This document shows positions 28,235-46,780 of a stretch of 64,000 bases of DNA, piece after piece. Each line of letters starts with the position of its first letter. The stretch's first letter is position 1. The position numbers and the translations under genes are program-made. Source of the stretch: an uncultured Candidatus Saccharibacteria bacterium. GTDB taxonomy: Bacteria; Patescibacteriota; Minisyncoccia; Phycocordibacterales; JAACPR01. Below the pieces are notes generated by a model. The model was not told the DNA's origin and ran no database searches. It worked only from the letters and a program-made list of their open reading frames with translations. The stretch lies in NCBI GenBank assembly GCA_964402215.1, contig CAYOAT010000001.1, forward strand, positions 134,703 through 198,702. The letters are read 5' to 3'.

Positions 28235-30247
28235 TTAGAAATCTATCAAGTATTCGATTTTTCCACCAGTTTTGTAATCTTCTCCACCATCAAAGTTTTC
28301 TATTTCAATTATCTCTTCGCTTATATCATCCAAAAATTCAGAAGATAAATTTACTTGTTTTGAACCAAAGATTGTTCGAAAACTTGTCCAAGTTAAAAAT
28401 AATTTCTTTTTTGCACGTGTGATTGCGACATAAAATAGACGGCGCTCTTCTTCGGAATCCTCGACTTTGTCATTTTCACGCTCCATCGGGAATAGTCCAT
28501 TTTCAAGACCTGTTACAAATACATAATCGAACTCCAGACCTTTTGCCGCGTGGACTGTCATTAATTTCACGCCGTTTTTATTTCTTTCTAGGTCGTCTTG
28601 ATCACTGGTTAGTGAAATATCATCCAAGAAATTTTCCATCGCTTCTTTTGGTTCAAAATCTTCGTATTTTTTTGCAAGTGAAGCCAACTCTTTTATGTTT
28701 TGAATTCTTTCAAGCCCTTCGTCCCCTTCTTCTTTTAATGCTTCCTCAAGACCAGATTCCTTTAAAATTAGTGCCACAATTTCTGCCGGTTTTTTTGTTA
28801 CTGATTCATCTCTAATTTTTTGCAAGAAATTTCTAAAATTCTTTATTTTTTCTTTAACTGCTGGTGTTAAAGTATCTTCTTCGTGAGCGTGAATTTTCAA
28901 AACAGTTGTTTTACCAAGTCCTCGTGGCGGCGTATTTATTATTCTGTTTAGGCTTGTAAAATCTTGTTCATTCAATGCGGCTTTTATATATGAAATTACA
29001 TCCTTGACCTCTTTTCGGTCAAAGAATTTTGTTCCGACCACTTGGTGTGGCAAATTGTGGCGCAAACAGATTTCTTCCAAAACTCGTGACTGGAAATTTG
29101 CGCGGTAAAGAAAAACAATTTCATTTGGCGATGTCCCTTTTGCTATTAATTCCTTAGCTTTCAGAATAGAAAAAGTTGCCTCATCATATTCATCAATGGC
29201 TCTATAAACCTGTATTTTTTCTCCAGCCGCGTTGTTTGTGAACAGATTCTTCTTTCTGCGAATTGAATTTTTGGAAATAATTTCATTTGCCGCCCTTAGA
29301 ATATTTTTTGTTGAACGATAATTTTCTTCGAGAACTATTTCTTTCGCCTCTGGATAATCGTGTTCAAAACTCATAATATTTTTAATTGTGGCACCTCTCC
29401 ACGTATAAATATTTTGATCGACGTCACCGACAACACAAATGTTTTTGTGTTCCTCCGCTAACAATTTTGTCATTTGATATTGAACTTCATTTGTATCTTG
29501 ATATTCATCAACATGAATATATTTCCAACGGTTCTGATATTTTTTTCTAATCTCTAGGTCTTTTTCAAGTAACCACACTGTTCGCACCAACAGATCATCA
29601 AAATCAAGTGCCCCACCCTTGTGAAGTTGTTCGTCATATCTTTTCCAAACGGTCGCAACAATACCCTTTATGTAGTCATTATAATGAATTGTATCTTCAT
29701 ATTCCTCGGGCGTAATCATATCTCCCTTTTGTCTGGAAATAATCGCAAGGATTTTTGCTGGGTCATATTGCTTTATGTCGTAACCCTCGTCTTTCAAAAT
29801 ATCTCTAATTATTTTTTTGGAGTCAGATCTATCTAGAATTGAAAACCTTTTGGGCAATTTCAGTTTTTCAAAATTTTCTCTAAGAATTAGTACTCCCAAT
29901 GAATGAAATGTTTTTATAGTGGGTCGTTCTTCAAACTCGGTAGGTCGTTTTAGGGTGTCTTCTTCTCTAAGTAGCCGATCAACACGTTCGCGCATTTCCG
30001 TTGCGGCTTTGTTTGTAAAAGTTACAGCCAGAATATTTTTTGGATCGACACCGTTTGCAATTAAATTGGCAATTCTGTACGTAATTGTTTTTGTTTTACC
30101 TGCACCGGCCCCCGCCATGATCAGTAGCGGCCCATCGATGTGCATCGCCGCTTCTTTTTGTTGTGGATTTAGGTTATTTAGGTAGGACATCCTGACTATC
30201 TTATCATTAGATAAGTCAAGATGCCCCTGTTGATAGCTGTTTGACAA
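28235..30247 (-). CDS. pcrA: ATP-dependent DNA helicase PcrA/UvrD family
   Basis: Walker A GAGAGKTKT and helicase motifs I-VI (TFTNKAA, DEYQDTN, VGD.DQ.IY.WRGA, VTRAKK). Confidence 0.9.
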   Translation of the reverse strand: MSNSYQQGHLDLSNDKIVRMSYLNNLNPQQKEAAMHIDGPLLIMAGAGAGKTKTITYRIANLIANGVDPKNILAVTFTNKAATEMRERVDRLLREEDTLKRPTEFEERPTIKTFHSLGVLILRENFEKLKLPKRFSILDRSDSKKIIRDILKDEGYDIKQYDPAKILAIISRQKGDMITPEEYEDTIHYNDYIKGIVATVWKRYDEQLHKGGALDFDDLLVRTVWLLEKDLEIRKKYQNRWKYIHVDEYQDTNEVQYQMTKLLAEEHKNICVVGDVDQNIYTWRGATIKNIMSFEHDYPEAKEIVLEENYRSTKNILRAANEIISKNSIRRKKNLFTNNAAGEKIQVYRAIDEYDEATFSILKAKELIAKGTSPNEIVFLYRANFQSRVLEEICLRHNLPHQVVGTKFFDRKEVKDVISYIKAALNEQDFTSLNRIINTPPRGLGKTTVLKIHAHEEDTLTPAVKEKIKNFRNFLQKIRDESVTKKPAEIVALILKESGLEEALKEEGDEGLERIQNIKELASLAKKYEDFEPKEAMENFLDDISLTSDQDDLERNKNGVKLMTVHAAKGLEFDYVFVTGLENGLFPMERENDKVEDSEEERRLFYVAITRAKKKLFLTWTSFRTIFGSKQVNLSSEFLDDISEEIIEIENFDGGEDYKTGGKIEYLIDF

Positions 30248-30325
30248 TCATTGTCACAAAACTATAATGAAATTTACCACAGAAAAGGTTGACCGAGGGC
30301 GATCCGTAGATCACAGACAGAAAAA

Positions 30326-31507
30326 TTGAAAATACCGCTTAAAATAAGGCTTATTAAACGAAAATCACATACAAGAGACCAGCTCCCTGAGGACAGTAGT
30401 AATGGGTGCGGCCCGGTAAATAAAGACGAAATAGGAATCTCAAAAAGATTTTCTTTGCGTTTATTGGCCAGATTTATTTCGGCATCACTATTTTTACCTT
30501 ATTTTTCTTTTGCGGCATCATTTCCAATTGTTTCCTTACCAGCGATTATCGGCCAGAATACGGTCAAAGAAAACTTTGATGTTATTACTGAGCCGTCCTT
30601 TAACTCACAAAACGCTGAAATTCTTGCCCCGCAAGTCAATAATAACCAGATAGAGGGAGCAATTGGCGGCGGACGACTATTAGTTATTGATGACACCGCC
30701 CTTGCACCGGAAATTGGTTCGGCCGGAACAACTCTTGATGTGAATTTAACTCAAAATAATGGAAAGATTTCTATTTATGAGGTTCGTGATGGCGATACTC
30801 TGTCGCAAATAGCAGAAATGTTTGGAGTTTCGGCCAATACGATCAGATGGGCTAACGATATAAGCGGAGCAATTCAACCAGGACAGATTCTAGTCATTTT
30901 GCCGGTAACGGGTATCACTCATAAAGTTAAAAGCGGTGGAACAATTGCTGACATTGCCAAAATTTACAAAGCTGACGTGAAAGAAATAGCATTATTCAAC
31001 GGAATTGGAATTGATACTCAATTAAAACCGGGAGACGAAATTATCGTTCCAAATGTTGACCCCGTTGTTAAAAGTAGCGGAAAGAAAACTTCATCATTGG
31101 CTTCTACTTACTCAAGTCCAGCTGCAGCAGCGGGCTATTACATGAACCCTCTTCCTGGAGAAATTCTCACTCAAAATCTTCATGGATATAATTCTGTTGA
31201 TATCGGGGCGCCAAATGGCACACCAATTTATGCTGCGGCGGACGGAAAAGTTATTGATAGTAGATACGGCGGTTGGAATGGAGGATATGCGGTGATGATA
31301 ATTATTTCACACGATAATGGTACGCAGACATTGTATGCACATCTAAGTGATAACCTGACAAAAATTGGTCAAAAAGTTGATAAGGGTGATGTGATTGGGT
31401 ACGTTGGATCAACAGGTAACTCGACAGGACCACACTTACATTTTGAAGTGCGTGGTGCCAAAAATCCTCTGTCAGTTTGCCGCGTAGGTTCACCTTGTAA
31501 CATATAG
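30326..31507 (+). CDS. LysM-domain M23 family peptidoglycan endopeptidase
   Basis: Two LysM repeats (DGDTLSQIAEMFGVS.., GGTIADIAKIYKAD..). M23 motifs HGYNSVDIGA, YAHLS, GSTGNSTGPHLHFEV. Signal-like hydrophobic segment near the N-terminus. Confidence 0.85.
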   Translation: MKIPLKIRLIKRKSHTRDQLPEDSSNGCGPVNKDEIGISKRFSLRLLARFISASLFLPYFSFAASFPIVSLPAIIGQNTVKENFDVITEPSFNSQNAEILAPQVNNNQIEGAIGGGRLLVIDDTALAPEIGSAGTTLDVNLTQNNGKISIYEVRDGDTLSQIAEMFGVSANTIRWANDISGAIQPGQILVILPVTGITHKVKSGGTIADIAKIYKADVKEIALFNGIGIDTQLKPGDEIIVPNVDPVVKSSGKKTSSLASTYSSPAAAAGYYMNPLPGEILTQNLHGYNSVDIGAPNGTPIYAAADGKVIDSRYGGWNGGYAVMIIISHDNGTQTLYAHLSDNLTKIGQKVDKGDVIGYVGSTGNSTGPHLHFEVRGAKNPLSVCRVGSPCNI

Positions 31508-35501: not shown

Positions 35502-36452
35502 ATGTCGAATAAGTCTGAAATTGATACTTTGCGTCAAGAATTTCTCGAATATATAGAAATTGAGAGAGGACGAAGCGTTAAAACCGTTGAAAATTACGAT
35601 CATTATTTAAGCCGTTTTTTTGCTGAACAAGGTATTAAAGAAGTTAAAGATATTACTGAGCGGGCAGTTCGTGAATTTCGTCTTTGGTTGAATCGTCAAA
35701 ATACAACGAAAAATATCGGTGGAAGGCTAACCTCCGGTACAATGAAGAAAAGAACTCAAAATTACTATTTAATCGCCCTTAGATCTTTTCTTAAATTTCT
35801 TTTAAAGAGAAATTATAAAGTAATCGCTCCAGATCAAATTGAATTAGCAAAAATTCCAGAGCGTTCTATCGATTTAATTACAAATGACGAATTAAGGAGG
35901 ATTATGGAGGGACCGAAAGGTCAAGACATAAAAGATTTGCGTGACAAAGCGATTTTAGAATTATTTTTTTCGACAGGACTCCGTGTTTCTGAATTATGTT
36001 CATTGAATCGTGAAGTTGATTTGAGTCGAGGAGAATTTGCGATACGAGGAAAAGGAGACAAAATTCGTGTTGTTTTTATTTCTGATTCAGCAAAAAAATC
36101 ATTGGATAAATATTTAGATAAAAGAGATGATATGGACGAGGCAATGTTTGTTCAGCTTGCAGGGAAAGGCGGAAATGATTTATTAAAAAAGAAAGAATCA
36201 ATAAGACTTACTCCGCGATCAATTGAAAGGATAGTCAGATTTTATGCTGTTAAAGCTGGTATTTCAAAGAAAGTTACGCCTCACATTATTCGCCACTCAT
36301 TTGCCACTGATTTACTGTCTAATGGAGCTGATTTGCGTTCTGTTCAGGCGTTACTTGGTCACGCAAATATCACTACAACCCAGGTTTATACTCACGTTAC
36401 AGATAGACATTTAAAAGAAATTCACAATAAATTTCATAATAAAGGATTGTAA
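35502..36452 (+). CDS. xerC: Tyrosine recombinase XerC/XerD family
   Basis: N-terminal SAM-like core-binding domain. C-terminal catalytic R..HxxR..Y (HIIRHSFATDLL...LLGHANITTTQVYTHV). Confidence 0.85.
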   Translation: MSNKSEIDTLRQEFLEYIEIERGRSVKTVENYDHYLSRFFAEQGIKEVKDITERAVREFRLWLNRQNTTKNIGGRLTSGTMKKRTQNYYLIALRSFLKFLLKRNYKVIAPDQIELAKIPERSIDLITNDELRRIMEGPKGQDIKDLRDKAILELFFSTGLRVSELCSLNREVDLSRGEFAIRGKGDKIRVVFISDSAKKSLDKYLDKRDDMDEAMFVQLAGKGGNDLLKKKESIRLTPRSIERIVRFYAVKAGISKKVTPHIIRHSFATDLLSNGADLRSVQALLGHANITTTQVYTHVTDRHLKEIHNKFHNKGL

Positions 36453-36473: not shown

Positions 36474-36511
36474 AAGGCGCTTGATGTATCAACATACTGT
36501 CAGGCGCCTTG
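36474..36511. terminator. Hairpin (7-bp GC stem, 24-nt loop) between xerC and the GC-rich cassette; terminator and/or recombination-site candidate
   Basis: aaggcgc ...24 nt... gcgcctt with T-rich tract on the minus strand (tttcatttt). The loop contains the near-palindrome tgatgtatcaacat. Confidence 0.35.
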
Positions 36512-36552
36512 TGAAATTAATGCTGGTTAATTTCGTTTGCTTCTACTGCTTG

Positions 36553-36942
36553 TTACGGCAGTTCTTTTTTTGCTTCTGCCAGTGCCGTCTCGCAGCCGAT
36601 ATGGTTTTTCCCGATCACCAAGAGGTCTTTGCCGTGATTTACAAACACGACGCAAACTTCGTAATGATATTCCACGCCTGCTCGAGCCAGCGAATCTTGC
36701 ATGAAAAGTTTCAGCTGCTGTTCCGCCGCGTCCTTTCCAACGAGCCAGCAAGCCACGGTGTGTTCACCGCCACCTGCTTTGATTTTTTTCACGAGTTTCT
36801 CGAGCAATTCTTTGCCTTCAGGCAAGGATTCGCTCTTTATGGCGAAACAATTCAGTGCCGCACGCTTCTTTGCGGCAATGATTTGCGTCGACCTCGTCGT
36901 GAAAACGTACTTTCCAACTCCAATTCCTCTGCTATCTTGCAT
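36553..36942 (-). CDS. 129-aa protein of unknown function in a GC-anomalous (about 50% GC) segment; likely foreign
   Basis: Only protein-like ORF in the 36.48-37.0 kb GC-rich block. Preceded on the minus strand by AAGGAG and an exact TTGACA-N18-TATAAT promoter. Predicted alternating beta/alpha small domain (..HTVACWLVGKDAAEQQ..VEYHYEVCVVFVNHGKDLLVIGKNH..). Confidence 0.45.
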   Translation of the reverse strand: MQDSRGIGVGKYVFTTRSTQIIAAKKRAALNCFAIKSESLPEGKELLEKLVKKIKAGGGEHTVACWLVGKDAAEQQLKLFMQDSLARAGVEYHYEVCVVFVNHGKDLLVIGKNHIGCETALAEAKKELP

Positions 36943-36999
36943 ACAATCACCATTCTCCTTATTCTGCTTGTTTGTAACGAACTAACCAGCAAGGCAAAA

Positions 37000-37029
37000 A
37001 TTATACACAACTTTTATGAGTATTGTCAA
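37000..37029 (-). promoter_or_regulatory. Consensus sigma70-type promoter for the GC-rich cassette gene
   Basis: Minus-strand reading ttgaca-atactcataaaagttgtg-tataat: exact -35, 18-nt spacer, exact -10. An AAGGAG SD lies 12 nt before the ATG at 36942. Confidence 0.45.
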
Positions 37030-37084
37030 ATTTTAAAAAGTCGGATGTGTACAACTTAATATGCTAATATTTATTTAATATTAT

Positions 37085-40919: not shown

Positions 40920-41429
40920 CTAGATAAGAGTCATTCCGAAAAACTTGTGAAAACCAAGAATTGTGCTGTCACAACCTTTTAGAATTTTCTCCTCCCCAGA
41001 GAAAAGAAGAAAGTTGTTACATGCGGGATTGTTGGTGTTTAAATACACAAGACTGACACCGTCAATGTCTCCCGCATAGACAATTGGTCCGCGACCGCAA
41101 TTAAAGTTTTCATCTTTATATGCTTCAGCCAATGCTTTTTTCAAAAATGGGATTACGGCTTCTGGATAACATCCGCCGTAACTCATTCCCCATACGGCAT
41201 TGCCCTTGAAAAAAATGGTTGTGTTACCCATACTCCAGTCAGAATTTGGGAAAACCCGCCATTCATCGACCACTTTAAAGAAACCCTCTTCCCATGTGTG
41301 GATGCGCCTGCCGTCAGGAAATTTCTCTTTTTTGACACCGCTGCCATCGCCTGCATAGCCCGCAAGAAGTGCCTTAAAAAAGACTTTGAGAGCCTCAGCT
41401 AGAATCATCGACCTCGACCATGAATCCAT
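40920..41429 (-). CDS. 169-aa protein of unknown function, GC-elevated (about 45%), with Shine-Dalgarno; likely foreign cassette
   Basis: Upstream on the minus strand: TTGACA (41502-41507), 17-nt spacer, weak -10 TAATGT, then accAAGGAAaatt-ATG. No recognisable domain (..GNTTIFFKGNAVWGMSYGG..GPIVYAGDIDGVSLVYLNTNNPACNNF..). Confidence 0.5.
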   Translation of the reverse strand: MDSWSRSMILAEALKVFFKALLAGYAGDGSGVKKEKFPDGRRIHTWEEGFFKVVDEWRVFPNSDWSMGNTTIFFKGNAVWGMSYGGCYPEAVIPFLKKALAEAYKDENFNCGRGPIVYAGDIDGVSLVYLNTNNPACNNFLLFSGEEKILKGCDSTILGFHKFFGMTLI

Positions 41430-41529
41430 AATTTTCCTTGGTTTGTTTTGTTTTCTATATCAAAAATCGCTCTGCCGGAACATTACAATTAAAAAAAATC
41501 AATGTCAATTTTTACCTAAACAATTTTTG

Positions 41530-41602
41530 TCGGAGCGCAGGGATTCGAACCCTGAGTCATCTGCTCCCAAAGCAGACATGTTAGCCGTTACACCACGCTC
41601 CG
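41530..41602 (-). tRNA. tRNA-Pro (anticodon TGG)
   Basis: The reverse complement folds as acceptor cggagcg/cgctccg, anticodon arm tctgc-tttggga-gcaga, T-arm caggg-ttcgaat-ccctg, 73 nt. Confidence 0.8.
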
Positions 41603-41973: not shown

Positions 41974-43203
41974 TTAAATTTCCTTTAATAGTAATTTGGC
42001 GAGTCGTTCGATATATTCGTTTTTAAATTCTACAACTCTTGATGCTATATCTCCTTTGATAAAATAATTTAAACTTTTTCCAGTTTCTTTTTCTATATCT
42101 CTACTTATATATGAAGTAGTGATCCCATTAATTTTTGCTTTTCCGTTTGATCCATCAGTTGTCGCAATTATTCCAACAAGGTCAAGAGAATTTTCGCTTT
42201 CACCATAAAATATTCCACCACCAGAAGCGCCTTGCGCACCAACATTTGATTTTGAAGTTGTAATAACATCAGTTTTGTTTCCGCCGAATGTGAATATTTC
42301 TAGTACTGAAACTGCCGCAGCTTGTAATTTTCCTGCGTGACTAATGTCCAAGAGACTCGCAGGTCCACCTGGGAAGCCCGAAACAACCACGCTGTCGTTG
42401 ATTTTGATTTCTTTATCGTATATGCCCGCACTTGGAAATATTTGCGGAATACCTAGGGCCGGGTTCGTATTTTTAGTTATCAATATAAGAGCATAATCGT
42501 CTTCTCCAGTACCACGAGCACCTTCCGCCCCAATTGACTTGTAATTATTTTGAATCCATTCCGGAGACGAATAAACCATCTCACCTTTATATCCATAAGT
42601 TGAAATATTTTCTTTATAAATTGAACAGTTAATTAAATCTGGATCGTAACTTTCTAAAATAAAAAATTGTGCAACATGCGAATTTGTTAGCACAACTCCC
42701 CGTGGAGAAATAATGACACCACTACCAGTCGAAACATTTATGTAATTTCCGTTTGTGTATGTACAAATTATATTTACAACAACATCGCGAATAGAGGCTG
42801 AAGCTGTGTTTTCTGTGGGTATAATCTCAGCAGTTGGAGGAGTTGGTTTAACAATTGGTGGAATCTGAATTGGAGTTTCTGTCGCTGGAGCAATTGTTGG
42901 TGCCGGCGTGACAACTGGCTCAGTGACTTCTTGTGGTTTTGAAATTACCGGATCTGGAATAACTCTTTCAATATTATCTGTTGGCTTGTCAGAAGTGTTT
43001 TGAATGTTTCGAAGATTTTGTCTTTCAATAATTTCGGCAACAGCTTCTTTTCGGGCCTGCTGAATTTGAATTGATTGCTGAGTAGGAATATTTATTTCTG
43101 GTGAGATTCCTAAAAATGTTAAAATAGAATAACTAAACAAAAGAGTTCTTTGAAGGATTATTCTAAGTAAAAAAGGCATAGGGGAATTATATCTGAAAAA
43201 CAA
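41974..43203 (-). CDS. Secreted trypsin-like (S1/HtrA-like) serine protease with Pro/Thr-rich linker
   Basis: Signal/TM N-terminus, PT-rich spacer. GSGVIISPRGVVLTNSHV (catalytic His region) and GASGGGIF (catalytic Ser GxSGG). No PDZ domain. Confidence 0.8.
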   Translation of the reverse strand: MFFRYNSPMPFLLRIILQRTLLFSYSILTFLGISPEINIPTQQSIQIQQARKEAVAEIIERQNLRNIQNTSDKPTDNIERVIPDPVISKPQEVTEPVVTPAPTIAPATETPIQIPPIVKPTPPTAEIIPTENTASASIRDVVVNIICTYTNGNYINVSTGSGVIISPRGVVLTNSHVAQFFILESYDPDLINCSIYKENISTYGYKGEMVYSSPEWIQNNYKSIGAEGARGTGEDDYALILITKNTNPALGIPQIFPSAGIYDKEIKINDSVVVSGFPGGPASLLDISHAGKLQAAAVSVLEIFTFGGNKTDVITTSKSNVGAQGASGGGIFYGESENSLDLVGIIATTDGSNGKAKINGITTSYISRDIEKETGKSLNYFIKGDIASRVVEFKNEYIERLAKLLLKEI

Positions 43204-43252
43204 AATTCTTTCATTGATGTTTGGTCGTTTGTTTGGTATATTTTTATAACCT

Positions 43253-43323
43253 GCGGGTGTGGTTTAGTGGTAGAATGTCTGCCTTCCAAGCAGAAGACGG
43301 GAGTTCGATTCTCCCCACCCGCA
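43253..43323 (+). tRNA. tRNA-Gly (anticodon TCC)
   Basis: Acceptor gcgggtg/cacccgc, anticodon arm tctgc-cttccaa-gcaga, T-arm gggag-ttcgatt-ctccc, 71 nt. Confidence 0.8.
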
Positions 43324-43335
43324 CATAAATAATTT

Positions 43336-43361
43336 ACCAACAGAAAATCTGTTGGTTTTTT
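43336..43361 (+). terminator. Hairpin plus T-run immediately after tRNA-Gly(TCC)
   Basis: accaacag-aaaat-ctgttggt followed by tttttt. Confidence 0.4.
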
Positions 43362-43380
43362 AATGTTTATTAAAGGATAT

Positions 43381-43417
43381 TTGCAAAAGAAAACACCGCG
43401 TAAAGCTTACGCGGTGT
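43381..43417 (-). terminator. Intrinsic terminator of the GC-rich cassette gene 43440..43802
   Basis: 11-bp stem acaccgcgtaa/ttacgcggtgt, 3-nt loop, T-rich tract on the minus strand. Confidence 0.5.
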
Positions 43418-43439
43418 GTTTGGCAGAAAGGCTGGGGAG

Positions 43440-43802
43440 CTATTTCTCCAATATGAGCAGGGGCCGGTATCCCACCAAAGAGTTTGTCCCAATTGTTTGG
43501 ACGATCTCTTGGAGGTATTTGGGGCCGTTTTCGTCGTTGTACATGGCGATGATCATGGCCCCCGGCTGGATCAGGCGGATGTTTCCGCCGTCTTTGACCA
43601 GGAGTTCGGTAGGTTCATATCCACCGAGCTCGGCGCCTGGGACCGAAGGGTAGACCTTCTCGATAACTTCGAGCACGGTTTCGGTTTTTGTGAGGTCGGC
43701 CAGTGTCGGTTGGACATTGCGGTGGCCTAAACTAAAAGTGCCGATCGCTATTCCGAAGAATATAACCGCAATTGCCAATGCCGCACGAATTGAATTCTTC
43801 AT
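43440..43802 (-). CDS. 121-aa secreted or membrane-anchored protein of unknown function in a GC-anomalous (about 52% GC) segment next to tRNA-Gly; likely foreign
   Basis: N-terminal signal/TM (AALAIAVIFFGIAIGTFSLG). Start taken as ATG 43802 (the ORF track starts one codon earlier at TTG). Strong SD accAAGGAGaagttg-ATG. Confidence 0.5.
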   Translation of the reverse strand: MKNSIRAALAIAVIFFGIAIGTFSLGHRNVQPTLADLTKTETVLEVIEKVYPSVPGAELGGYEPTELLVKDGGNIRLIQPGAMIIAMYNDENGPKYLQEIVQTIGTNSLVGYRPLLILEK

Positions 43803-43860
43803 CAACTTCTCCTTGGTTTATTTTTTCTAAATCGTTTGAAAGATCACCTTTACACTAAGT

Positions 43861-43890
43861 ATTATAGCATAGATTATATACACTTGTCAA
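43861..43890 (-). promoter_or_regulatory. Consensus sigma70-type promoter for the 43440..43802 cassette gene
   Basis: Minus-strand reading ttgaca-agtgtatataatctatgc-tataat: exact -35, 18-nt spacer, exact -10. Confidence 0.45.
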
Positions 43891-43918
43891 GTATCATGTT
43901 TTTTATATTTATCAAAAC

Positions 43919-43946
43919 AAAAAACCGCCCATGGCGGTATTTTTGC
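43919..43946. terminator. Intrinsic terminator downstream of hup (bidirectional hairpin)
   Basis: aaaaaccgcc-cat-ggcggtattttt. Confidence 0.5.
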
Positions 43947-43968
43947 ATAGAAGCTTCTATAAAATAGA

Positions 43969-44241
43969 TTATCTAACTAAATCCTTTAAAGCCTTTGCCG
44001 CTCTGAATTTTGGAACGCGCATTGCTGGAACAGTGATCGATTCACCAGTTCGAGGATTTCTTGCTGTACGAGCAGCTCTTTCTTTGGCGCTGAAGATACC
44101 GAATCCTGCGACTGATACTTCTTCACCTTTCTTTAGAGAACCAGAAATTGAATCAAAAATTGAATCAACAACTTGTTCTGCTTGTACCTTGGTACCACCT
44201 AGTACCTCATGAACCTTTTCTACAAGATTTGCTTTATTCAT
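43969..44241 (-). CDS. hup: DNA-binding protein HU
   Basis: MNKANLVEKV...GFGIFSAKERAARTARNPRTGESI...VPKFRAAKALKD: HU/IHF fold with the beta-arm signature. Confidence 0.9.
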   Translation of the reverse strand: MNKANLVEKVHEVLGGTKVQAEQVVDSIFDSISGSLKKGEEVSVAGFGIFSAKERAARTARNPRTGESITVPAMRVPKFRAAKALKDLVR

Positions 44242-44391
44242 ATGAATTTTAAATCTGTTTTACCAATAAATTGTGCTTTTATTGGTTTATTAATTTATAA
44301 CAGCACGTGCTTTAACTGTTCATTAGCACGTGGATATTATATAAAACCTTATTTTAAGCCGCAACTAGGAGATACTTTATAATAAGTTTGA

Positions 44392-45921: not shown

Positions 45922-46207
45922 GAATTTTTATTCGCTTCTTATATCCCTAAATATTTTACTATTTTGTTTCATGCTTCGCGGACATTTTAATCGATTCTGG
46001 CGGGCGGGATTTTGAAGCGTTTTAATTTAATTACTAATAAATTCATACTATATTGTTGTTTAAGTAAAGTCAAAAAGTGTGAAAAAGAAAATACCTAAAC
46101 ATCTTTTATTTGATCTCGCCCTCGAATAATTTTCGTCAATTTACATTTGATCAAAATAAATCTGCGAAGGATCTCAAAAAGAGTTTAGGTATTTTCGTTA
46201 TCAGTTA

Positions 46208-46780
46208 TTATGAAATTACTTTATCAATAATTCCGTATTTTTTTGCTTCTTCAGCATTCATAAAATAATCTCGATCAACATCATGCTCAACTTGTTCAAT
46301 TGGTTTGCCAGTATTTTTTGCCATCATTGCAACCAAAGTTTTTTTCATTTCTAAAATTCTTTTTGCAGAAATTTCGATATCAGAAGCTTGACCCTGTGCA
46401 CCACCAAGAGGTTGGTGAATCATTACTTCGGCATTTGGTAATGCAAATCTCTTTCCCTTTTCTCCGGCGGATAAAATCCATGCAGCTGCACTTGCCGCCA
46501 TACCAACACAAACAGTAGAGACATTATTTTTTATATGATGCATCGTGTCCATGATTGCCATTGCATCTGTCACTGAACCACCAGGAGAATTTATATACAA
46601 CTGTACATCTTTCTTTGGATCTTCAGATTGTAAAAATAATAGTTGGGCGATAACAATGTTTGCAGCATCATCGTCAATTGGGCCGCACAGAAAAACAATT
46701 CCTTCTTTTAATAACCTTGAGTAAATATCAAAGGCTCTTTCACCAAACTGACTCTTCTCTATTACTGTTGGAATAAGCAT
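46208..46780 (-). CDS. clpP: ATP-dependent Clp protease proteolytic subunit
   Basis: Start trimmed to [24 protein letters not shown]... (canonical ClpP N-terminus). Catalytic [11 protein letters not shown] (Ser) and H/D motifs. Confidence 0.9.

What the first reader, a model, noticed from the sequence alone, without database searches (positions are those of the whole stretch)
43356..43920. Third GC-rich cassette inserted between tRNA-Gly(TCC) and hup
A roughly 480-bp block at about 52% GC lies immediately 3' of a tRNA gene, a classic integration target. On the minus strand it carries an exact TTGACA-N18-TATAAT promoter, an AAGGAG SD with 6-nt spacing, a 121-aa signal-peptide protein of unknown family, and an 11-bp-stem terminator. 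The opposite-strand ORFs in the block are compositional artefacts.
Basis: partly seen in the sequence, partly recalled or inferred. Interest (0 to 1): 0.55.

Follow-up and report, generated by a model that had tools for sequence, protein, structure and literature searches.

The report
Acquired orphan exported-protein gene beside tRNA-Gly
A small, self-contained gene for an exported protein of unknown family, with foreign-looking base composition, sits between hup and tRNA-Gly in an ultra-small (Patescibacteria) bacterium; it appears to have been swapped between sister species by recombination in the conserved flanks, which is real but fairly ordinary accessory-gene biology.

Summary
The described features are all present. 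There is an exact TTGACA-N18-TATAAT promoter with a TG extension, an AAGGAG ribosome-binding site, a 120/121-aa ORF at 43440-43802/43805(-) and an 11-bp-stem terminator. The GC block is the strongest in the window (GC3 0.64 against about 0.26 for the other genes).

The ORF is a real protein-coding gene. Against its orthologue in a sister species, dN/dS is about 0.09 in the mature part, and only the sense frame shows mostly synonymous change.

The family has just three sequences among about 15 billion proteins. All three carry one N-terminal hydrophobic anchor and come from AT-rich Patescibacteria. No Pfam, NCBIfam, PHROG, PADLOC, PDB or Rfam match was found, and the AlphaFold models were unusable.

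Two close relatives have an empty 60-94-bp hup-tRNA spacer, so the unit is an insertion. The window shows no integrase and no tRNA-derived repeat. Instead, a roughly 1.3-kb tract (hup, cassette, tRNA) groups the two cassette-bearing genomes against the species tree (22:1:1 against 38:90:37 informative sites). This points to exchange by homologous recombination in the conserved flanks.

Donor and function remain unknown. The persistent high GC3, the low dS and the excess RNA folding are unexplained. Interest is modest.

The parts
43253..43324 (+). tRNA-Gly(TCC), conserved anchor on one side of the slot
   Evidence: ARAGORN and Rfam tRNA at 75 bits. The hup-to-tRNA-Gly(TCC) adjacency is seen in most related loci.
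43336..43356 (+). Hairpin terminator of the tRNA gene (9-bp stem followed by a T-run)
   Evidence: Terminator scan.
43393..43417 (-). Intrinsic terminator of the cassette gene (11-bp stem, 3-nt loop, T-run)
   Evidence: It is conserved in L001 at about 85% identity.
43440..43802 (-). Cassette ORF: 120 codons plus stop from the ATG at 43802 (121 aa if the TTG at 43805 is used); orphan exported protein P0001
   Evidence: GC3 is 0.64. Purifying selection acts in this frame only.
43728..43784 (-). Codons 7-25: the single N-terminal hydrophobic segment (AALAIAVIFFGIAIGTFSL), a signal peptide or signal anchor, preceded by the MKNSIR n-region
   Evidence: The Kyte-Doolittle 19-residue maximum is 2.36 at residue 7. 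The same feature occurs in P0002 and P0003.
43443..43712 (-). Codons 31-120: acidic domain of about 90 aa. GC3 is 0.69. It is 94% nucleotide-identical to L001, with dS 0.29 and dN 0.025. It folds better than shuffled controls.
43809..43814 (-). Shine-Dalgarno AAGGAG, 6 nt before the ATG
   Evidence: Read. It is conserved in L001.
43861..43890 (-). Promoter TTGACA-N18-TATAAT with an extended -10 TG
   Evidence: The hexamers and the TG are conserved in L001 while the spacer is 44% diverged.
43924..43938 (-). hup terminator hairpin, which separates hup from the cassette promoter
43969..44241 (-). hup (HU), conserved anchor on the other side of the slot
   Evidence: Pfam PF00216, E 3e-31.
43325..43968 (.). 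Occupied hup/tRNA-Gly interval (644 bp). The same interval is 60 bp in L005 and 94 bp in L007. The exact insertion edges inside it cannot be resolved.
43100..44360 (.). Tract whose phylogeny groups the window with L001, contrary to the flanking species tree; inferred recombination or transfer tract carrying the cassette
   Evidence: Sliding three-way identity, four-taxon informative sites and calibration of hup dS.
43711..43930 (-). 5' module of the cassette (space after the hup terminator, promoter, 5'UTR, codons 1-30). It is 31% diverged from L001, against 6% for the rest of the ORF, which makes the cassette a mosaic.
   Evidence: Mismatch map. dS is 1.78 for codons 1-30.

Best explanation
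The block is a horizontally acquired, self-contained single-gene transcription unit lodged in a variable slot between two conserved anchors, hup and tRNA-Gly(TCC), of a Patescibacteria (Paceibacteria-type) genome.

Anatomy and product. The unit consists of a consensus extended -10 promoter, a ribosome-binding site, a 120-aa ORF and an intrinsic terminator. It encodes a lineage-restricted small protein. A positively charged N-terminus and one hydrophobic segment direct that protein into or across the membrane. An acidic domain of about 90 aa is left outside the cell, either tethered or released.

How it arrived. The unit did not arrive in this genome by an integrase acting on the tRNA. Together with its flanks it was exchanged between related species by homologous recombination, plausibly after natural transformation, which is known in this phylum. 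This exchange happened well after the species split. The cassette is itself a mosaic of an older 5' module and a younger 3' module.

Shown: the anatomy, the coding status, purifying selection, the empty sites in relatives, the local phylogenetic discordance and the extreme rarity of the family.

Inferred: a foreign ultimate origin (from GC3 alone), export and topology (from hydropathy alone), strong expression (from consensus signals alone), and any role at the cell surface, such as host contact or phage interaction.
For: Anatomy.

Coding status. In the mature part there are 15 synonymous and 5 non-synonymous codon changes, and 15 of 21 differences fall at codon position 3. dN is 0.025 and dS 0.29. 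All other frames carry stops or mostly non-synonymous change.

Homologues. Only P0002 (89% identity, at the same locus in sister species L001) and P0003 (41% identity, E 3.8e-6) were found among 1.84 billion representatives and 5.8 billion clusters. P0003 sits at a different locus and is also a GC-rich, promoter- and terminator-bounded single gene with an N-terminal hydrophobic segment.

Insertion. L005 and L007 have 60- and 94-bp spacers at the same junction. By RNase Y identity they are about as close to the window as L001 is, or somewhat more distant (88% and 80%, against 90% for L001).

Composition. GC3 is 0.64, against about 0.26 elsewhere.

Recombination. Outside the tract, L001 and L005 are sisters, with informative sites 90:38:37. 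Within hup plus its upstream spacer and the tRNA flank, the window groups with L001 at 22:1:1. The sliding identities agree. hup dS between the window and L001 is 0.11, where about 0.48 is expected from the L001-L005 calibration. dS of the mature domain is 0.29, against 1.0-1.8 in six neighbouring genes.

No integrase or att signature was found.

Literature. HGT mostly among Patescibacteria, together with retained recombination and competence genes, is reported in PMC12455944.
Against: No donor is known. Every known homologue is in an AT-rich Patescibacterium, so foreign origin rests on composition alone.

The 5' module (promoter plus codons 1-30) is as diverged as the genome background (31%, dS 1.78). 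A single recent transfer therefore cannot explain the whole unit.

GC3 stays at 0.47-0.57 even in that saturated part. This fits selection on synonymous sites at least as well as it fits recent arrival.

Only two cassette-bearing genomes and two empty-site genomes are available.

Export, expression and function are untested, and both structure models were unusable (pLDDT 45 and 60).
Confidence: 0.6

Rival explanations
1. Vertical inheritance. The gene was already present in the common ancestor of the window, L001 and L005 and was cleanly deleted in L005. Under this view, the high GC3, the low dS and the strong folding of the mature-domain coding sequence reflect selection on synonymous sites, for example for mRNA stability or structure, rather than recent transfer.
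For: The promoter spacer and the first 30 codons are diverged to background level (44% and dS 1.78), as expected for an old resident. GC3 remains elevated in that saturated part. The coding DNA folds better than shuffles, with z of -3.7 (sense) and -6.0 (antisense), against 0.17 +/- 0.99 for 25 control gene segments.
Against: The flanking hup and tRNA segments, which do not share the cassette's composition (hup GC3 is 0.22), also group the window with L001 against the species tree (22:1:1). hup dS is four-fold below its calibrated expectation. The outgroup L007 also has an empty site. Substitutions do not avoid predicted stems, and there are no compensatory pairs. The P0003 gene shows no folding excess, with z of +0.86.
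Confidence: 0.2
2. Remnant cargo of an integrase-carrying element that targeted tRNA-Gly(TCC). The element integrated at the tRNA 3' end, later lost its integrase and att repeat, and left the gene behind.
For: The unit lies directly 3' of a tRNA, has atypical composition and is polymorphic for presence or absence. In at least six other relatives the same slot holds partial copies of that genome's own tRNA-Gly 3' end, which is the hallmark of tRNA-targeted integration described for additive islands and tycheposons.
Against: The window and L001 have no recombinase in or beside the unit. They have no tRNA-derived direct repeat and no terminal repeats beyond chance. The nearest tyrosine recombinase (35502-36452) lies 7 kb away and is a conserved syntenic XerC/D-like gene. 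No integrase was found among the 20 largest ORFs occupying this slot in relatives. The tRNA-end copies in relatives belong to a conserved structured element that may not be an att scar.
Confidence: 0.12
3. The GC-rich block is primarily a structured non-coding or antisense RNA, and the ORF is incidental.
For: GC-rich islands in AT-rich genomes are often RNA genes. Folding z-scores are -3.2 to -6.0 on both strands.
Against: Codon-position pattern and dN/dS of 0.09 in one frame only. A protein-level homologue exists at 41% identity whose DNA shows no folding excess. There is no Rfam match at gathering threshold or at E<=1. Half of the substitutions that fall in predicted stems break the pair, and none is compensated.
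Confidence: 0.03
4. Assembly chimera or contaminating DNA in a metagenome-assembled genome.
For: There is an abrupt GC change inside a MAG-type sequence.
Against: The identical arrangement occurs in independent JGI, ENA and Logan assemblies, and a sister species at about 80% ANI carries an orthologous, diverged copy.
Confidence: 0.01

Closest known systems
Additive flexible genomic islands or islets at tRNA genes (Alteromonas, PMC4898812; tycheposon-seeded islands of Prochlorococcus, bioRxiv 10.1101/2020.12.28.424599)
   Same: Cargo sits directly beside a tRNA gene in a streamlined genome. It is present or absent among close relatives, disconnected from the core phylogeny, and more similar between species than the core genome is.
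   Different: The unit is a single 0.55-kb gene. In this genome there is no integrase and no partial-tRNA repeat. Transfer appears to have used homology in the flanks rather than site-specific recombination.
Replacement of accessory loci by homologous recombination in conserved flanks (replacement flexible islands; Lopez-Perez et al. 2014, as cited, reference 27)
   Same: Conserved flanking genes show the recombination signal. The cargo encodes a probably surface-exposed product.
   Different: Those islands are multi-gene glycan clusters with many alternative versions. Here only occupied and empty states and one mosaic allele pair are known.
Horizontal gene exchange among Patescibacteria (PMC12455944)
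   Same: The paper reports that most individual transfers occur between Patescibacteria and that recombination and competence functions are retained. The present case fits as a concrete single-gene example.
   Different: That study worked at genome scale, with islands and individual transferred genes detected by software. It does not describe this gene, this slot or flank-mediated exchange.
Integron gene cassettes
   Same: It is a single ORF that behaves as a 'cassette'.
   Different: There is no attC site and no integron integrase. The unit carries its own strong promoter and terminator, so it is not a member of this family.
Lineage-specific orphan small exported or membrane proteins of CPR bacteria
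   Same: A short protein with an N-terminal hydrophobic segment, no detectable family, and a distribution restricted to one genus-level lineage.
   Different: Its GC3 is 2.5 times the genomic norm and its synonymous divergence is five-fold reduced, which ordinary native orphan genes are not expected to show.

Membership tests
tRNA-targeted integrative island (integrase-mediated) | Lies at the 3' side of a tRNA gene | tested here: met
   The tRNA ends at 43324 and the cassette terminator starts at 43393.
tRNA-targeted integrative island (integrase-mediated) | Integrase or recombinase gene within or beside the element | tested here: not met
   The interval holds one real ORF. The nearest tyrosine recombinase (35502-36452) is 7 kb away and is syntenic in L001.
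tRNA-targeted integrative island (integrase-mediated) | Direct repeat of the tRNA 3' end (att) at the distal boundary | tested here: not met
   No such repeat was found in the window. Only short chance matches appear.
tRNA-targeted integrative island (integrase-mediated) | Presence or absence among close relatives, and atypical composition | tested here: met
   Empty sites in L005 and L007. GC3 of 0.64 against about 0.26.
Integron gene cassette | attC recombination site 3' of the ORF and an adjacent intI/attI | tested here: not met
   The only 3' structure is a canonical terminator hairpin. No integron integrase is nearby.
Flank-mediated (homologous-recombination) exchange of an accessory locus | Phylogenetic discordance confined to the locus and its conserved flanks, with lower divergence than the core genome | tested here: met
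   Informative sites are 22:1:1 inside the tract against 38:90:37 outside it. hup dS is 0.11 where about 0.48 is expected. Mature-domain dS is 0.29 against 1.0-1.8 in neighbours. The mosaic 5' module complicates a single-event model.
Sec-type exported or signal-anchored protein | Basic n-region followed by one hydrophobic h-region at the N-terminus, conserved in homologues | tested here: met
   MKNSIR is followed by a 19-residue hydrophobic segment with KD 2.36. P0002 and P0003 have the same feature.
Sec-type exported or signal-anchored protein | Signal-peptidase cleavage site (which decides between a cleaved signal peptide and an uncleaved anchor) | tested here: inconclusive
   S/V-L-G26|H27 fits the -3/-1 rule, but the h-region is long and P0003 has no such site. 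SignalP and DeepTMHMM were not available.
Independent sigma-70 transcription unit | -35/-10 consensus promoter, SD and intrinsic terminator, conserved in the orthologue | tested here: met
   The functional elements are conserved in L001 while the spacers diverge. Actual transcription cannot be tested with these tools.
Any described protein family, phage protein, defence protein or solved structure | Significant profile or structure match | tested here: not met
   Pfam, NCBIfam, PHROGs and PADLOC gave nothing below E 0.08. A PDB profile search gave E >= 0.34. tblastn against phages and plasmids gave nothing. Foldseek on a low-confidence model gave E >= 0.28.
Described structured RNA (Rfam) | Covariance-model match, or covariation supporting a structure | tested here: not met
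   No Rfam hit was found. With only two sequences there are no compensatory pairs, and about half of the stem substitutions break pairs.

The most novel reading that the evidence does not exclude
The mature-domain coding DNA may be under constraint at the nucleotide level, not only at the protein level. Three observations point that way. GC3 of 0.69 is maintained in an AT-rich genome. Synonymous divergence is five-fold lower than in neighbouring genes. Self-complementarity is in excess on both strands, a property shared with the promoter-identical 'cassette 1'. Together with the P0003 unit, these GC3-rich single genes, each bounded by a consensus promoter and a terminator, would then form a distinct class of exchangeable plug-in modules for surface proteins in Patescibacteria. 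Such modules would move by flank homology without any mobile-element machinery, and might carry a second, RNA-level function.
Probability: 0.1. Interest if true: 0.6.

Novelty: new member of a known kind. Interest (0 to 1): 0.3.

Why it matters
Ultra-small Patescibacteria have few classical mobile elements, yet they clearly gain genes. This locus is a clean, small example of how that can happen. A ready-to-express gene for a probable surface or secreted protein sits in a slot between two highly conserved anchors, and it carries the phylogenetic signature of having been passed between species by recombination in those anchors. If confirmed with more genomes, it would show one route by which these episymbionts vary their cell surface. 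The gene's persistent high GC3 with no identifiable donor is a small open puzzle. In itself the finding is a single orphan gene of unknown function, not a new kind of system.

Tried and rejected
Homologue searches
- The word-indexed search of 5.8 billion clusters returned only the protein itself and P0002.
- Exhaustive HMMER against 1.84 billion representatives added only P0003.
- Re-searching with P0003 returned only P0003 itself.
- Scans of metagenome and viral contigs with the family alignment, and with an exact 26-mer, found nothing.
- tblastn against phage and plasmid records found nothing.

Family libraries and structure
- Pfam, NCBIfam, PHROGs, PADLOC and a PDB profile search gave no match.
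- AlphaFold2 on the full three-sequence alignment gave pLDDT 45, and on the mature domain pLDDT 60. Neither model is usable, and Foldseek against the PDB gave no hit below E 0.28.

Mobile-element signatures
- There is no tRNA-end direct repeat. The 23-nt, 74%-complementary inverted pair flanking the unit (43366-43388 / 43941-43963) is no better than other chance pairs in this AT-rich DNA.
- The three GC-rich cassettes share no DNA with one another, and the cassette has no second copy in the window.

Alternative readings
- An ncRNA reading is rejected.
- De novo origin from the tRNA-linked GC-rich element that fills this slot in other relatives has no support: nhmmer and blastn found no similarity.
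- GC-biased gene conversion as the cause of high GC3 is unlikely, because hup lies in the same recombinant tract and has GC3 of 0.22.

A wasted search
- The last homologue search, on the 129-aa ORF of cassette 1, returned nothing, not even itself. Gene callers had called the opposite strand in this species.
Full report
**1. What is in the sequence**

The window is AT-rich at 34.8% GC. Two-hundred-nucleotide windows average 0.348 with a standard deviation of 0.052. Judging from the nearest genomes recovered, it comes from a Patescibacteria/CPR bacterium of the Paceibacteria (Parcubacteria) type.

The finding lies between tRNA-Gly(TCC) at 43253-43324(+) and hup at 43969-44241(-) (Pfam Bac_DNA_binding, E 3e-31).

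- The promoter TTGACA-N18-TATAAT at 43890-43861(-) matches 12/12 and has an extended -10 TG. It is one of only three exact consensus promoters in 64 kb, where 0.11 are expected by chance.
- AAGGAG at 43814-43809 lies 6 nt upstream of the ATG at 43802.
- The ORF runs to 43440.
- The terminator at 43417-43393 has an 11-bp stem.
- hup and the tRNA each have their own terminator hairpin, at 43938-43924 and 43336-43356. The unit is therefore transcriptionally self-contained.

Two small corrections apply. The 6-nt spacing implies the ATG start, which gives 120 aa as gene callers report (P0001). The 121-aa figure belongs to the TTG one codon upstream. Also, '52% GC' is the value for the ORF. A 480-bp block is 49% GC and the stated span is 45%.

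The block is nonetheless the strongest GC peak in the window, at 0.58. The anomaly sits in third codon positions. GC3 is 0.64, against about 0.26 (range 0.21-0.34) in the other genes of at least 120 aa. GC1 and GC2 are ordinary.

**2. It is a real protein-coding gene**

A sister species is available as JGI contig L001. It shares about 80% nucleotide identity with the window and has the same gene order. It carries an orthologue, P0002, at the same place with 89% amino-acid identity.

In the mature part (codons 31-120) there are 15 synonymous and 5 non-synonymous codon differences. Fifteen of the 21 nucleotide differences fall at codon position 3. dN is 0.025, dS is 0.29 and dN/dS is about 0.09. 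The other five reading frames contain stops or show mainly non-synonymous change.

The promoter hexamers, the TG, the SD and the start codon are conserved in L001, while the spacer between -35 and -10 differs at 8 of 18 positions. The same sequence occurs in independent JGI, ENA and Logan assemblies at 99.9-100% identity, so it is not a chimera.

**3. The family is almost empty**

The word-indexed search of 5.8 billion clusters found only the protein itself and P0002. An exhaustive HMMER scan of 1.84 billion representatives added one sequence, P0003, of 150 aa with 41% identity over residues 28-117 (E 3.8e-6). Each of the three clusters has a single member.

P0003 lies at a different locus, between rpoD and a DsbA-like gene, in a 35%-GC Patescibacterium. 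This is probably the same genome as P0002, because both report a longest contig of 744,552 bp. P0003 is also a GC-enriched single gene (46% GC, GC3 0.54) with its own TTGACT...TATAAT promoter and flanking terminators.

All three proteins have a basic N-terminus followed by one hydrophobic segment. The Kyte-Doolittle 19-residue maxima are 2.0-2.5. An acidic, cysteine-poor domain of 90-98 aa follows. This topology is the only functional information obtained.

- Pfam, NCBIfam, PHROGs, PADLOC and PDB profile searches are empty.
- Phage and plasmid tblastn searches are empty.
- The AlphaFold2 models are of low confidence (pLDDT 45 and 60), and Foldseek returns nothing meaningful.

**4. It is an insertion in a variable slot, without integrase hallmarks**

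I used HU as a probe to fetch 80 related loci. The order rny-hup-tRNA-Gly(TCC) is widely conserved; rny lies upstream of hup in 74 of 81 loci.

The hup-tRNA spacer, however, ranges from 59 to 3366 bp. The two nearest species representatives have empty spacers of 60 and 94 bp, each containing a single hairpin. These are L005 (RNase Y 88% identical, against 90% for L001) and L007 (80%).

Elsewhere the slot holds unrelated genes: CTP synthase, an M20 peptidase, transporters, a TrmB regulator, kinases, hydrolases and unknowns. None of them is related to the cassette protein, and no integrase was found among the 20 largest.

In the window there is no recombinase in or beside the unit. There is no direct repeat of the tRNA 3' end and no convincing terminal repeat. 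The unit shares no sequence with the other two GC-rich genes. The 'classic tRNA integration' mechanism is therefore not supported for this genome.

**5. How it most likely moved**

Across about 8 kb of three-way alignment, L001 and L005 are each other's closest relatives. A typical comparison is 0.82-0.93 identity between them, against 0.73-0.89 to the window.

The exception is a tract from about 44360 to about 43100, where the window and L001 are closest at 0.95-0.98, against 0.83-0.92. With L007 as outgroup, parsimony-informative sites give the following counts:

| Region | (window,L001) | (L001,L005) | (window,L005) |
|---|---|---|---|
| clpP and rny | 38 | 90 | 37 |
| hup with its upstream spacer, plus the tRNA flank | 22 | 1 | 1 |

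hup dS between the window and L001 is 0.11. The L001-L005 calibration (hup 0.36 against rny 1.14) predicts about 0.48. The cassette's mature domain has dS of 0.29, while rny, the CCA-adding enzyme gene, exoIII, xerC, tig and the RNHCP gene have 1.0-1.8.

The discordant tract coincides with the cassette and its two conserved anchors. The simplest reading is that hup, cassette and tRNA were exchanged between the two lineages by homologous recombination long after they split. This is compatible with published evidence that Patescibacteria exchange genes mainly among themselves and retain recombination and competence functions (PMC12455944).

**6. What does not fit neatly**

The cassette is a mosaic. 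From the hup terminator to codon 30 (43930-43711) it differs from L001 at 31% of positions, with dS of 1.78. From codon 31 onward it differs at 6%. The boundary is sharp. One recent transfer cannot explain both parts. Either there were several recombination events among unsampled alleles, or the unit is old and the 3' part is constrained.

GC3 is elevated even in the saturated 5' part (0.47 and 0.57) and is 0.68-0.69 in the mature part in both species. No donor with matching composition is known.

The mature-domain DNA also folds better than dinucleotide shuffles:

| Sequence | z-score |
|---|---|
| Window, sense | -3.7 |
| Window, antisense | -6.0 |
| L001, sense | -3.7 |
| 25 control gene segments | 0.17 +/- 0.99 (minimum -2.2) |
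| P0003 gene | +0.86 |

With only two sequences there are no compensatory pairs, substitutions fall in predicted stems at the expected rate, and about half of those break the pair. I treat the folding excess and the persistent GC3 as unexplained. They are the basis of the main rival (vertical inheritance with synonymous-site selection) and of the 'novel case'.

**7. Comparison with known systems**

The unit behaves like cargo of an additive flexible island at a tRNA. It sits next to the tRNA, is patchy among relatives, is disconnected from the core phylogeny, and is more similar between species than the core genome is (PMC4898812; tycheposon model). It fails the defining tests for integrase-mediated islands, having no integrase and no partial-tRNA repeat. 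It also fails the tests for integron cassettes, having no attC or intI and carrying its own promoter.

It meets the test for flank-mediated exchange. Its product fits the general class of lineage-specific small exported proteins of CPR bacteria. I file it as a new member of a known kind: a horizontally exchanged accessory orphan gene in a tRNA-adjacent flexible slot.

**8. Verdict**

My best explanation is a self-contained gene for a signal-anchored or secreted protein of about 90 aa, acquired horizontally and exchanged between sister species through recombination in hup and the tRNA. I give it a confidence of 0.6. Interest is modest at 0.3. The locus is a tidy example of gene flux in an ultra-small genome, with an unexplained compositional and synonymous-site anomaly, but it is a single orphan gene with no function assigned.

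Noticed in passing
Relatives only: L022 6328-6463; L031 2402-2522 and 2549-2700; L076 4669-4817; L083 4534-4688; L020 6604-6773; L043 7624-7787. The core motif also occurs in L036, L037, L042, L058, L073 and L084.: In the same hup/tRNA-Gly slot of other Paceibacteria there is a GC-rich element of 120-170 nt just 3' of tRNA-Gly. Its last ~19 nt copy that genome's own tRNA-Gly 3' end. Its 5' part carries the inverted complement, a covarying hairpin and a conserved core (GGGGAATCGAAAGCCGGA...TGAGGCGGGGTCGCGAG). Eight of 20 predicted pairs show compensatory changes. ARAGORN does not call it, even with intron search, and Rfam has no match. It is either an undescribed tRNA-linked structured RNA or a miniature integrative or att-type element. 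It is absent from the window, L001, L005 and L007.
   Followed up: partly
window 36553-36942(-), promoter 37029-37000(-), terminator about 36475-36512: 'Cassette 1' is a 129-aa GC3-rich (0.54) ORF between a XerC/D-like gene and exoIII. It has exactly the same promoter architecture (TTGACA-N18-TATAAT) and a folding z of -3.8. Its L001 counterpart is only 30% identical. Gene callers called the opposite-strand 191/192-aa ORF (36481-37059+) in this species, which is probably the wrong strand. There are weak hits to the SCO5389 / NucS-shadow family (E about 5e-4).
   Followed up: partly
window 40920-41429(-), next to tRNA-Pro 41529-41602(-): 'Cassette 2' is a 169-aa ORF with GC3 of 0.44 and a sub-threshold DUF5680 match. 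It is 52% identical to the L001 counterpart and is present in L005 too, so it evolves much faster than neighbouring genes. All three GC3 outliers of the window lie within 7.3 kb, in a tRNA-rich stretch.
   Followed up: partly
window 46045-46238 (clpP-rny intergenic region); centre 46108-46175: A 68-nt segment flanked by imperfect inverted repeats of about 63 nt (71% complementary) is in the opposite orientation in L001 and L005 relative to the window. The alignment score is 47-48 inverted against 22-24 collinear. This looks like a small invertible segment upstream of rny.
   Followed up: partly
L085 8001-8453 (also L086 2384-2836): The only distant homologue (P0003) is itself a GC-enriched single gene bounded by a promoter and terminators, lying between rpoD and a DsbA-like gene. 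It is probably in the same genome as P0002, which makes it a paralogue at a second site. No orthologue was detected for the window's species.
   Followed up: partly
window 42767-43107 (N-terminal third of the trypsin-like protease gene 41974-43203(-)): This part of the secreted-protease gene next to the tRNA is hypervariable against L001, at 47-58% identity with indels, while the catalytic part is 65-80% identical.
   Followed up: no
window 30241-30268(+): The third exact consensus promoter of the window precedes the 393-aa gene at 30326-31507 (GC 0.41), which was not identified here. The two orphan cassettes therefore carry two of the window's three exact-consensus promoters.
   Followed up: no
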